Part shown: positions 6,847-7,794 of the stretch, one piece after another
Numbering within the stretch: position 1 is the first letter of the stretch
Layout of the letters: the number at the start of each line of letters is the position of its first letter
Source of the DNA: Deltaproteobacteria bacterium
GTDB lineage: Bacteria; UBA10199; JACPAL01
Direction of reading: 5' to 3'
Assembly (NCBI GenBank): GCA_016180845.1
Contig: JACPAK010000001.1
Location: forward strand, 673,707 to 737,706
DNA length: 64,000 nucleotides
Made by a program: the position numbers and the translations under genes
The notes under the pieces: generated by a model
What the model saw: the letters and a program-made list of their open reading frames with translations, nothing else
Databases searched by the model: none
What the model was told of the DNA's origin: nothing

Positions 6847-7794
6847 ATGTCTCAGAAAATTAAAATATCAGCCCCCGCGAAAATCAACCTCCGACTCAAG
6901 ATCACCGGTCGTCGTTCGGATGGTTATCACCTGCTTGATATGGTGATGGTGAAATTGGATCTGTGCGATGAGATTGATTTTGAAATTGAAAAAAAATCCC
7001 CCCATGCCCCCCTTTGTCAAAGGGGGGAGACTCCCCCGCTTGTCGGGGGAGATTTTCAGATCCCCTTGGATTCTTCAAACACCCTCTGGAAGGTCGCCCA
7101 GTTAGTTCGTGAAGAGTCAGGACAAAAATTCGAACTCAAGATTTCATTGAACAAAAATATCCCAATCGCTGCTGGACTTGGAGGTGGCTCCAGTGATGCT
7201 GCGGCTCTCTTAATAGCCCTGAATCGAGAGCTAGGGCTTGATTGGTCGCGGGAGCGGCTGATGAAGATTTGTCTTAAAATCGGGGCCGATGTCCCGTTCT
7301 TCCTTGCCGAGGGGCCACAGAGAGTCACCGGCATTGGAGAGATTTTAGAGCCGATATCGGTCCCTTCCCTATCGGTTATCCTGATCAATCCTGGGTTTTC
7401 GGTTTCTACGAAAGAGGTGTATCACTGGTTTGACCTTGAAATTGTTGAGACGGGTGACTCGGGTCGGGCGCCCGCCCGCGCGCAACGCGTGAGCACGGGT
7501 GGGCGGAACCCGAGGCAGGACCCGCCTCTAGTGGCATTGACAGAGGTAGGAATTGATGCTATCCCGCCGCTACTTGAAAACGACTTGGAAAAGGTCGTTT
7601 TCTCCCGCTATCCGGTCCTGGCAGAGATGAAGGAGATGTTGATGAAAGCCGGGGCCCTCGGGGCGCTGATGAGCGGAAGCGGTGGTACCGTCTTCGGACT
7701 CTTTGAATCTGCGGCGTCACGAGACCGGGGATTTGATCTGATGGTTCAGAAAAAAAATCCTGAATGGTGGGTTTGGAAGGGGCGAAGCCTTTAG
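6847..7794 (+). CDS. ispE: 4-diphosphocytidyl-2-C-methyl-D-erythritol kinase (GHMP kinase)
   Basis: The N-terminus (KISAPAKINLRLKITGRRSDGYH) and the GHMP motif (PIAAGLGGGSSDAAALL) are present. It sits upstream of tRNA-Gln, prs, rplY and pth, which is a widely conserved arrangement. It is 315 aa and carries two apparent in-frame insertions. Confidence 0.9.
   Translation: MSQKIKISAPAKINLRLKITGRRSDGYHLLDMVMVKLDLCDEIDFEIEKKSPHAPLCQRGETPPLVGGDFQIPLDSSNTLWKVAQLVREESGQKFELKISLNKNIPIAAGLGGGSSDAAALLIALNRELGLDWSRERLMKICLKIGADVPFFLAEGPQRVTGIGEILEPISVPSLSVILINPGFSVSTKEVYHWFDLEIVETGDSGRAPARAQRVSTGGRNPRQDPPLVALTEVGIDAIPPLLENDLEKVVFSRYPVLAEMKEMLMKAGALGALMSGSGGTVFGLFESAASRDRGFDLMVQKKNPEWWVWKGRSL
6994..7056. 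repeat. REP-like double-hairpin element (CCCCCCTTTG-T-CAAAGGGGGG followed by CTCCCCCG-CTTG-TCGGGGGAG) inserted in-frame within ispE
   Basis: A perfect inverted repeat at 7007..7027 and a second hairpin at 7031..7051. A closely related sequence is found at 13432..13472. Confidence 0.6.

What the first reader, a model, noticed from the sequence alone, without database searches (positions are those of the whole stretch)
6994..7056. REP-like double-hairpin element inserted in-frame inside ispE, with a second copy at the dnaB 3' end
The 63-bp segment consists of two perfect GC-rich hairpins and has a near-identical relative at 13432..13472 in an intergenic spot. Inside ispE it adds about 22 in-frame residues (KKSPHAPLCQRGETPPLVGGDFQ) without breaking the frame. 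This suggests a miniature palindromic element that invaded an essential gene and was tolerated. A second GC-rich in-frame stretch at about 7441..7540 may be another insertion.
Basis: seen in the sequence. Interest (0 to 1): 0.55.

Follow-up and report, generated by a model that had tools for sequence, protein, structure and literature searches.

The report
Palindromic repeat inserted inside ispE
A 63-base hairpin-forming repeat sits in-frame inside an essential enzyme gene without breaking it; the same repeat occurs in many bacterial phyla, often inside genes, and flanks a small nuclease gene of unknown function (DUF559).

Summary
Window 6994-7056 lies inside a bona fide ispE gene and forms two perfect GC hairpins. 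A truncated copy fills the dnaB-rdgB spacer at 13431-13471. Orthologous IspE proteins lack the residues. AlphaFold places this insert, and the second GC-rich stretch, in the only two low-confidence loops of the protein.

The element is not a private oddity. Hits span Beta-, Gamma- and Deltaproteobacteria, Nitrospirota, Acidobacteriota, Elusimicrobia, Chlorobi and phages. The 5' boundary is sharp. About ten checked copies lie in-frame inside genes such as uvrA, valS, dnaX, metH and cobN.

It lacks the hallmarks of classical REPs: no GTAG/CGTC tag and no RAYT transposase. Instead, 12 of 120 loci carry a DUF559 (Vsr-like nuclease) gene embedded between two copies. All 16 metagenome loci chosen by that protein alone carry the element. 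More distant DUF559 genes, including E. coli ycjD, sit beside other palindromes of the same build.

Best reading: a decayed, non-autonomous copy of a DUF559-associated palindromic element, tolerated in a surface loop. Mobility and nuclease activity are inferred, not shown.

The parts
6847..7794 (+). ispE (CDP-ME kinase), the host gene. It is intact, and all catalytic and ATP-binding motifs are conserved.
   Evidence: All 43 columns that are invariant across the 25 aligned sequences, query included, include K12, N14, D148 and the GLGGGSSDAA motif.
6994..7056 (+). Element copy 1, 63 nt or 21 codons, read as KSPHAPLCQRGETPPLVGGDF. It is a composite form with a 3-nt spacer between its two arms.
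6994..7027 (+). Left arm, the canonical module: AAAT, C6 (6998-7003), ATG, then hairpin A (7007-7027).
   Evidence: Matches the module found in 128 copies from other genomes. Invariant columns are listed and module statistics.
7031..7056 (+). Degenerate right arm: hairpin B (7031-7051) plus the terminal GGGGGAGATTTT. It lacks the last G-run of the consensus right arm TCCCCCTTTGAAAAAGGGGGATTGAGGGGGATTT.
   Evidence: Alignment A2 against composite copies L043, L063 and L094.
13431..13471 (+). Element copy 2, a truncated single module (AAATCCCCCC-TTG-CCCCCCTTTTTCAAAGtGGGGGAATTTT). It fills the dnaB-rdgB spacer and overlaps the dnaB stop codon.
   Evidence: The same spacer is 12 nt in L001 and 3 nt in L003.
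7441..7560 (+). Site 2, a variable-length loop of IspE (about residues 199-238). It is about 34 residues longer than in the insert-free orthologue P0006.
   Evidence: pLDDT is below 50 for residues 206-238.
7458..7514 (+). A 57-nt GC-rich nested palindrome (CTCGGGT..CGCCCGCCCG-loop-CGGGTGGGCG..ACCCGAG) within site 2. It is probably a relic of a different palindromic element. It is a single copy in all the sequence I held.
12080..13432 (+). dnaB, whose stop codon abuts copy 2.
   Evidence: Syntenic Pfam DnaB/DnaB_C genes are present in L001 and L003.
13481..14080 (+). rdgB/Ham1-like gene downstream of copy 2.
   Evidence: A Ham1p_like gene occupies the same position in L001 and L003.

Best explanation
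Window 6994-7056 is a decayed, non-autonomous copy of a short palindromic DNA element that inserted in-frame into ispE. It survives there because it lies in a disordered surface loop and its length is a multiple of three with no stop codon in that frame. The copy at 13431-13471 is a truncated single module of the same family.

The family has a defined structure. A module is AAATCCCCCC-YRG-CCCCCCTTT(T/G)TCAAAGGGGGG. Modules occur in three forms:
- alone;
- as a compact long hairpin ending in ...GGGGGGATTT;
- as inverted doublets separated by a 10-80 nt spacer.

The family is spread across many bacterial phyla and some phages.

Inferred: the autonomous form is a roughly 120-residue DUF559 (Vsr-like PD-(D/E)XK nuclease) gene embedded between two composite elements. 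The upstream element's terminal G-run sits at Shine-Dalgarno distance from the ATG. The downstream element often supplies the stop codon.

Also inferred: the nuclease nicks or cuts at the hairpin or cruciform, and repair or replication then copies the element elsewhere, in the way RAYT is thought to act on REPINs. The reverse is also possible: the nuclease gene may home into resident elements.

Shown: the sequence family, its boundaries, its intragenic in-frame copies, and the DUF559 association. Not shown: nuclease activity, mobility, or a DUF559 gene in this particular genome.
For: Insertion status:
- The site-1 residues are absent from 24 orthologues and from solved IspE structures.
- AlphaFold gives pLDDT above 90 everywhere except residues about 50-72 and 203-240.
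- The dnaB-rdgB spacer is 48 nt here against 12 nt and 3 nt in syntenic relatives.

Family:
- The 5' boundary is sharp. AAA occupies positions -3 to -1 in 117-128 of 128 copies, and position -4 is random.
- The orthologue in L001 carries the canonical compact form in-frame at a different ispE site.

Intragenic habit:
- Pfam domains lie on both sides of the element in UvrA, ValS, CobN, CbiA, MetH, HsdS, urea carboxylase, Lhr, a PKS and DnaX.
- The phage SuMu portal gene carries one in-frame.

DUF559 link:
- DUF559 was the top shared ORF family, present in 12 of 120 loci and immediately flanked by elements on both sides.
- All 16 metagenome loci picked by this DUF559 subfamily (62% identity or more) carry the element. 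Only 0-2 of 36 loci with more distant homologues do.
- Those distant homologues carry other palindromes of the same build. Hairpin density is 2.44 per kb near the gene against 0.04 per kb further away.
- GGGGGATTT lies 0-10 nt before the ATG in about 15 of 23 loci, and the stop codon falls inside the next module in several.
- E. coli ycjD (DUF559) is followed by a dispersed palindromic repeat with a median of 15 places per genome.
Against: - There is no DUF559 gene in the 64-kb window or in the relatives' loci L001-L004. The rest of the source genome could not be read.
- Only 2 copies occur in 64 kb, and both are degenerate.
- The insert is 21 codons but the net gain is only about 9-11 residues. 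So either about 10-12 native codons were lost, or part of hairpin B (PLVGGDF, predicted strand at residues 65-67) is native sequence.
- I identified no target-site duplication.
- No closely related genome with an empty ispE site exists. The nearest IspE is 55% identical.
- Near-identical sequence across phyla is unlike classical REPs, which are species-specific, and remains unexplained.
- Some of the 16 protein-selected loci are near-duplicates of one another.
Confidence: 0.72

Rival explanations
1. It is a classical REP/REPIN mobilised by a RAYT (Y1/HUH tyrosine transposase).
For: It is a short GC-rich palindrome with inverted doublets, like REPINs. REPs inside genes are documented (PMC3733652). 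A Y1_Tnp+DnaA_C gene lies 8 kb from ispE in relative L002.
Against: There is no GTAG or CGTC terminal tag; the conserved end is AAAT. Homologues of the Y1 protein occur in only 2 of 120 element loci and are not adjacent to the element. The gene that is flanked by elements is DUF559.
Confidence: 0.07
2. The DUF559 gene is a homing-type selfish nuclease that targets resident palindromic elements. On this reading the elements spread by another route, and DUF559 does not mobilise them.
For: The gene sits exactly between two directly repeated composite elements that share spacer sequence, which resemble homology arms. E. coli has a partial duplicate of the ycjD 3' end next to the element. From memory: Vsr-like homing endonucleases exist, for example I-Bth0305I.
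Against: Each DUF559 subfamily has its own cognate palindrome type. The gene's translation signals are built into the element ends. Both fit co-evolution as one unit at least as well as homing does. The two models are not mutually exclusive.
Confidence: 0.15
3. The hairpins are functional RNA or DNA signals selected in place, for example for mRNA stability, translational pausing or nucleoid-protein binding, rather than selfish insertions.
For: The structures are strong. REPs in other species affect mRNA decay and termination (PMC3184786). The element ends supply the Shine-Dalgarno sequence and stop codon for DUF559.
Against: No Rfam family reaches its threshold. [quoted passage not shown] Positions are not conserved between orthologues: site 1 here, site 2 in L001.
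Confidence: 0.04
4. It is an assembly artefact or a chance low-complexity stretch in a metagenome-assembled genome.
For: The source is a MAG. Repeats can cause mis-joins. DUF559 loci are often on very short contigs.
Against: The reading frame and IspE homology continue on both sides. The same module occurs inside genes in isolate and complete genomes, such as Luteimonas, Thiothrix, Sulfurimicrobium and phage SuMu. Chance expectation is 0.01 in the window.
Confidence: 0.02

Closest known systems
REP / REPIN elements with RAYT transposases (E. coli, Pseudomonas, Stenotrophomonas)
   Same: Short GC-rich imperfect palindromes that occur as singlets and as inverted doublets forming long hairpins. 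The associated gene is itself flanked by the repeats. Occasional in-frame copies occur inside genes such as uvrA and tRNA synthetases (PMC3733652).
   Different: There is no GTAG/CGTC tag. The partner gene is a DUF559 PD-(D/E)XK nuclease, not a Y1/HUH transposase. The same sequence is shared across phyla instead of being species-specific. About one copy in five to ten is intragenic.
Rickettsia palindromic elements (RPE; Ogata et al. 2000, as cited in PMC3184786 and PMC3733652)
   Same: Palindromic selfish DNA inserted in-frame in protein-coding genes, including essential ones, and tolerated in loops.
   Different: RPEs are 100-150 bp, restricted to Rickettsia, unrelated in sequence, and have no known associated nuclease.
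'Conserved sequences' Gbem_R5001-R5006 of Geobacter bemidjiensis (Aklujkar 2010, PMC2996986, Table S6)
   Same: The consensus AAGTCCCCCTTTGCGAAGGGGGATTAGGGGGATTTC is the right arm of this same family.
   Different: It was only catalogued, as six intergenic copies. No function, partner gene, cross-phylum spread or intragenic copies were reported for it.
E. coli dispersed palindrome next to ycjD/fabI. I recall this as 'box C' (Bergler 1992; Bachellier 1999), but could not verify the name in the library.
   Same: The same nested architecture of two C-blocks, a loop and two G-blocks (CCCCTCACCC-TAA-CCCTCTCCCC-aga-GGGGAGGGG...). It is dispersed at a median of 15 places per genome and lies next to a DUF559 gene.
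   Different: The sequence differs (CCCTC type, not C6). The same type sits in ispE site 2 of relative L003 and matches 'class 4' of G. metallireducens (PMC2700814).
IS200/IS605 and their gene-less derivatives (PATEs)
   Same: A small nuclease-type gene bracketed by subterminal hairpins, with abundant hairpin-only derivatives.
   Different: The enzyme fold differs (HUH Y1 against Vsr-like PD-(D/E)XK). Here the two flanks are whole palindromes in direct repeat.
Betaproteobacterial repeat element (BRE; PMC3110155)
   Same: A repeat shared across a bacterial class, sometimes tandem and sometimes entirely inside ORFs.
   Different: It is 75-91 bp with 69% GC. Its sequence is not given in the text I could read, so relatedness was not tested.

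Membership tests
IspE (host gene) | Passes the curated equivalog models and keeps the GHMP kinase motifs. | tested here: met
   NF011202 scores 214.3 against a cut-off of 204; TIGR00154 scores 188.1 against 138.7. GHMP_kinases_N and _C are both found.
C6/G6 palindromic element family (defined here) | Module AAATCCCCCC-NNG-CCCCCCTTT-N-TC-N-AAG-G5/6 with a sharp AAAT 5' boundary. | tested here: met
   Both window copies match the scan pattern exactly. Invariant columns are shown in alignment A2.
C6/G6 palindromic element family (defined here) | A cognate DUF559 gene is present in the same genome. | not testable with these tools
   None is found in the 64-kb window.
REP/REPIN-RAYT | A short imperfect palindrome that is repeated and forms inverted doublets. 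| tested here: met
REP/REPIN-RAYT | A conserved GTAG or CGTC tetranucleotide at one end (PMC3733652). | tested here: not met
   The conserved end is AAAT/ATTT.
REP/REPIN-RAYT | An associated Y1 (RAYT) gene flanked by the repeats. | tested here: not met
   A Y1_Tnp homologue occurs in 2 of 120 loci and is not adjacent to the element. DUF559 occupies that role instead.
REP/REPIN-RAYT | High copy number, predominantly extragenic. | tested here: inconclusive
   There are 2 copies in 64 kb here. In other genomes 30 of 132 copies lie in long stop-free spans, and 10 of the 15 I checked are truly intragenic. Per-genome counts were not obtainable.
MITE | Terminal inverted repeats. | tested here: met
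   AAATCCCCCC ... GGGGGGATTT.
MITE | Target-site duplications flanking the element. | tested here: inconclusive
   No consistent duplication is visible in 128 flanks, and position -4 is random. No precise empty or filled site pairs were available.
MITE | A parent insertion sequence with the same ends that encodes a DDE transposase. | tested here: not met
   ORF clustering of the 120 loci finds no shared transposase. The only enriched small family is DUF559.
Rickettsia palindromic elements | In-frame insertion into functional genes at tolerated loops. | tested here: met
Rickettsia palindromic elements | RPE sequence families of 100-150 bp in Rickettsia. | tested here: not met
   The length is 41-63 nt here, and the taxa and sequence differ.
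Known RNA families (Rfam 15) | Reaches a family's gathering score. | tested here: not met
   The best overlapping hit scores 21.9 bits against a gathering score of 79. Only the neighbouring tRNA passes.

The most novel reading that the evidence does not exclude
DUF559/YcjD-type Vsr-like nucleases are the cognate proteins of a superfamily of nested C-block/G-block palindromic repeats. This would be a nuclease-based counterpart of the RAYT-REPIN system. Each DUF559 subfamily is paired with its own repeat type: C6/G6 here, the CCCTC type in E. coli and Geobacter. The system spreads across phyla, partly on phages, and routinely leaves in-frame 'PPLxKGG'- or 'PSPLPxGEG'-type peptide inserts inside essential proteins. 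That would give DUF559 a first function and give several orphan repeat families a mobilising or maintaining enzyme.
Probability: 0.45. Interest if true: 0.85.

Novelty: new variant of a known kind. Interest (0 to 1): 0.66.

Why it matters
Taken alone, the ispE insert is one more example of a known phenomenon: a palindromic repeat tolerated in-frame in an essential gene. Following it up gave three results of wider use.

- **A cross-phylum family.** One short repeat family is shared almost base-for-base by bacteria from many phyla and by phages. Classical REPs, by contrast, are species-specific.
- **Many intragenic copies.** A substantial share of its copies sit inside conserved genes such as uvrA, dnaX, valS, metH and ispE. 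This explains recurrent Pro/Gly-rich inserts that confuse alignments, annotation and structure prediction.
- **A partner gene.** The family, and sister families with the same architecture including one in E. coli K-12, is specifically linked to DUF559. DUF559 is a very common predicted nuclease with no assigned function.

If the link is functional, it makes an old question directly testable in E. coli: what makes and maintains orphan palindromic repeats that have no RAYT?

Tried and rejected
- **Rfam, permissive thresholds, 6700-7900.** Nothing near a gathering score apart from the neighbouring tRNA-Gln.
- **RAYT hypothesis.** tblastn of the L002 Y1_Tnp protein against all loci gave 2 of 120 hits, neither adjacent to an element. 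Rejected.
- **Literal literature searches.** Searches for the DNA motif, for the encoded peptides (PPLSKGG and similar) and for 'box C' returned nothing. Papers mentioning DUF559 or ycjD give no function and no link to repeats.
- **Further copies of the site-2 palindrome (7458-7514).** None with 3 or fewer mismatches in the window or in about 1.3 Mb of fetched loci. It cannot be called a repeat.
- **Plasmids as carriers.** No match to the DUF559 gene or its flanking elements in 72,556 plasmids; the only hits covered 58 nt of the upstream gene in the query.
- **Retrieving the source contig through its IspE protein.** Not on record.
- **Target-site duplication at site 1.** GATTTTGAAAT and GATTTTCAGAT resemble each other, but the second overlaps the element's own ATTT terminus, so I do not accept it.
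- **Long stop-free spans in high-GC Lysobacter and Thiobacillus loci (L059, L119, L092).** No Pfam support, so I discarded them as false intragenic calls.

Full report
**The observation**

ORF 6847-7794(+) is ispE. It passes the curated cut-offs of two NCBIfam equivalogs and carries both GHMP-kinase domains. It is 100% identical to a protein from a 'Deltaproteobacteria bacterium' MAG on an 804,652-bp contig. The next-best IspE in 5.8 billion proteins is only 55% identical.

Positions 6994-7056 read AAAATCCCCCC-ATG-CCCCCCTTTgtcAAAGGGGGG-AGA-CTCCCCCGcttgtCGGGGGAG-ATTTT. The two perfect stems have 9 bp and 8 bp. Folded as DNA the segment gives -19.9 kcal/mol against -10.5 +/- 2.2 for shuffles, and none of 200 shuffles does as well.

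A second copy lies at 13431-13471. It is 89% identical over 37 nt, and the motif is expected 0.01 times by chance in the window. It has only the left half of the element. Its first bases overlap the dnaB stop codon, and it nearly fills the 48-nt dnaB-rdgB spacer.

**Is it an insertion?**

In an alignment with 24 orthologues, none has the site-1 residues. They have a 12-13 residue stretch (xxGIxIESDxxx) where the window protein has 22-23 residues. Solved IspE structures show gaps of 10 residues (M. tuberculosis 3PYD) and 16 residues (T. thermophilus 1UEK) at this point.

An AlphaFold model built from the alignment is confident overall (mean pLDDT 85, pTM 0.82). Confidence drops only at residues about 50-72 and 203-240, which are exactly the two candidate inserts.

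For copy 2 there are empty sites. In two syntenic relatives the dnaB-Ham1 spacer is 12 nt and 3 nt, against 48 nt here.

One discrepancy remains. The element is 21 codons long, but the net gain is only about 9-11 residues. Either native codons were lost at insertion, or the 3' part (PLVGGDF, predicted as a short strand at residues 65-67) partly replaces or coincides with the native strand.

**The element belongs to a large family**

The orthologue in L001 carries, at a different place in ispE (site 2), the sequence GAAATCCCCCCTAGCCCCCCTTTGTCGAAGGGGGGGAGGGGGGATTT in-frame. This is a single long hairpin (z = -6).

I scanned one genome per GTDB species with TCCCCCCNNGCCCCCCTTTNTCNAAG, which has 22 specified bases. 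By my own arithmetic about 0.07 chance hits are expected. The scan stopped at its 120-locus limit. Hits came from:
- Beta- and Gammaproteobacteria (Nitrosomonas, Gallionella, Thiobacillus, Lysobacter, Methylobacter, Thiothrix, Chromatium);
- Geobacter, Desulfuromonadales and Desulfobacterales;
- Myxococcota, Nitrospirota, Nitrospinota, Acidobacteriota, Elusimicrobia, Chlorobaculum, Trueperaceae and candidate phyla.

The 5' boundary is sharp. AAA occupies positions -3 to -1 in 117-128 of 128 copies, and position -4 is random. The internal trinucleotide is mostly YRG: TAG 45, CGG 19, TGG 17, CAG 13.

Copies come in three forms: single modules, compact hairpins ending in GGGGGGATTT, and inverted doublets with a 10-80 nt spacer. 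Window copy 1 aligns as a doublet with a 3-nt spacer whose right arm has lost its last G-run. Copy 2 is a single module.

Within some genomes the copies share longer flanks, for example five loci of one Desulfobacteraceae MAG, which suggests amplification in place.

The right-arm consensus was catalogued without comment as six intergenic 'conserved sequences' in Geobacter bemidjiensis (PMC2996986, Table S6). I found no other description.

**Intragenic copies are common**

Of 132 copies, 30 lie in stop-free spans extending at least 300 nt on both sides. Of the 15 I checked with Pfam, 10 have real domains on both sides or interrupted by the insert: UvrA, ValS, CobN, CbiA, the MetH activation domain, HsdS, urea carboxylase, Lhr, a PKS linker and the DnaX tau linker. 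Three high-GC spans were spurious and two were ambiguous.

The copies are read on both strands and in several frames: IPPSPPLSKGG, KSPPAPLFQRG, SPPFEKGGPGGI. The window copy uses the KSP.APL.QRG frame.

A Mu-like Haemophilus phage carries a perfect 36-nt module in-frame in its portal gene. A further 25 stretches of IMG/VR viral contigs match the pattern.

Repeats inside genes are already documented for Rickettsia RPEs, some GTAG/CGTC REPs and Geobacter repeats (PMC3184786, PMC3733652, PMC2996986). The phenomenon is therefore known; this family and its breadth are not.

**What travels with it**

No Rfam family matches. A RAYT-like Y1 gene is not associated: 2 of 120 loci, neither adjacent.

I clustered all ORFs of the 120 loci. 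The most widely shared family was a protein of about 120 residues, found in 12 loci from Beta-, Gamma- and Deltaproteobacteria, Chlorobi and Nitrospirota. It is Pfam DUF559 (E = 1e-34), a predicted Vsr-related PD-(D/E)XK nuclease (PMC1189080). Its only solved relative is the uncharacterised 3HRL. For a single-copy gene I would expect roughly 0.2 of 120 such 8-kb loci by chance (my rough estimate).

In these loci the gene is bracketed immediately by two composite elements in direct repeat.

The reverse test used loci chosen by the protein alone:
- The complete genome of Sulfurimicrobium lacus, plus Thiobacillus denitrificans and a Desulfurivibrionaceae contig, all carry the element next to the gene.
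- Among 52 metagenome loci, 16 of 16 with at least 62% identity carry C6/G6 modules within 250 nt. Only 0-2 of 36 with 53% identity or less do. Some of the 16 are near-duplicates.

The distant homologues are instead flanked by other nested palindromes of C-blocks and G-blocks, such as CCCTCACCCCAACCCTCTCCC...GGGAGAGGG. Perfect polypyrimidine/polypurine hairpins of at least 8 bp occur at 2.44 per kb within 200 nt of these genes, against 0.04 per kb beyond 400 nt (33 hits against 2).

The gene's expression signals are built into the element. GGGGGATTT ends 0-10 nt before the ATG in about 15 of 23 loci, which is Shine-Dalgarno spacing. In several loci the stop codon is the variable trinucleotide of the next module.

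In E. coli K-12 the single DUF559 gene, ycjD, ends inside a CCCTCTCCC...GGGGG hairpin. It is followed by a partial duplicate of its own 3' end and by a CCCTC-type palindrome. That palindrome is a dispersed repeat, with a median of 15 places per genome in all 5,426 complete E. coli genomes. I recall this as 'box C' but could not verify the name.

**Site 2 of ispE**

Between the conserved TGGTTTGAYGAR and TTGACA, four lineages carry four different palindromes:
- the C6/G6 element in L001;
- a C5TC4 type in L002;
- the CCCTC type in L003;
- a unique GC-rich 57-nt nested palindrome in the window, 7458-7514.

The first three belong to the types found next to DUF559 genes. This loop is either a preferred target or one of the few places where such insertions survive selection. 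The window's version has no second copy in anything I could search, so calling it a relic of an element is inference.

**Mechanism and confidence**

I regard the following as shown:
- copy 1 is an in-frame insertion of a member of a cross-phylum palindromic repeat family;
- copy 2 is a truncated member of the same family;
- the family often sits inside genes;
- the family is specifically associated with one DUF559 subfamily.

I regard the following as inferred:
- DUF559 is the enzyme that nicks the hairpin or cruciform and so propagates or maintains the elements, in the way RAYT is thought to act on REPINs;
- alternatively, it is a homing-type nuclease that lands in resident elements;
- selection then filters insertions to stop-free, multiple-of-three copies in loops;
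- phages contribute to spread between phyla.

Nothing here shows nuclease activity or movement, and this genome's own DUF559 status is unknown.

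Noticed in passing
window 7797-7869 (+): A tRNA-Gln (anticodon TTG) starts 3 nt after the ispE stop codon. A tRNA-Pro (TGG) lies at 20428-20502.
   Followed up: no
window 7441-7560; L001 7150-7215; L002 about 10620-10700; L003 about 10570-10640: The same IspE loop (between WFDE and LT) holds four different GC-rich palindromes in four lineages, an apparent insertion hot spot.
   Followed up: partly
L039, L047, L089, L100, L101, L125 and others: DUF559 genes are embedded between two directly repeated composite palindromic elements. The Shine-Dalgarno-like G-run, and sometimes the stop codon, are supplied by the elements.
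   Followed up: yes
L182 (E. coli K-12 NC_000913.3, 1351030-1351840): ycjD (DUF559) is followed by a partial duplicate of its own 3' end and by a CCCTC-type palindrome. That palindrome is dispersed at a median of 15 places per genome in all 5,426 E. coli genomes. It is possibly the classical 'box C', but this is unverified.
   Followed up: partly
L181 1499-1536 (Haemophilus phage SuMu, portal gp29): A perfect 36-nt module lies in-frame in a phage portal gene and is read as KSPLAPLFQRGE. One IMG/VR contig (UViG_3300005096_000132) has at least six copies.
   Followed up: partly
L002 865-1821: A Y1_Tnp + Bac_DnaA_C (RAYT-like) gene lies 8 kb upstream of ispE in a relative. It is not associated with the element family.
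   Followed up: yes
L033 971-1907 (Lysobacter sp. Root916): Four modules sit in a periodic array, spaced about 230 and 450 nt apart, with near-identical flanks on both sides. This points to a larger tandemly repeated unit.
   Followed up: no
table: Most DUF559 proteins of this subfamily are on very short contigs (0.5-3 kb). This fits assemblies breaking at the flanking repeats.
   Followed up: no
window 33760-35710 (+) and 16620-17120 (+): Long arrays of Asp-rich GATxxxGATGGxGAT repeats (DxDxDG-type, resembling calcium-binding repeats) lie in large ORFs (families D2-D7).
   Followed up: no
window 29790-30425: GC-rich 9-, 18- and 45-nt periodic repeats (GCC/GCT-rich; families D1 and D8) lie in a coding-like region.
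   Followed up: no
128 module copies: The variable trinucleotide is mostly YRG. Its variants (CGG, TGG, CAG, TAG) are linked by C-to-T and G-to-A transitions, and TAG is the commonest. TAG is also the DUF559 stop codon in several master-like copies. Whether this reflects deamination or descent is unknown.
   Followed up: no
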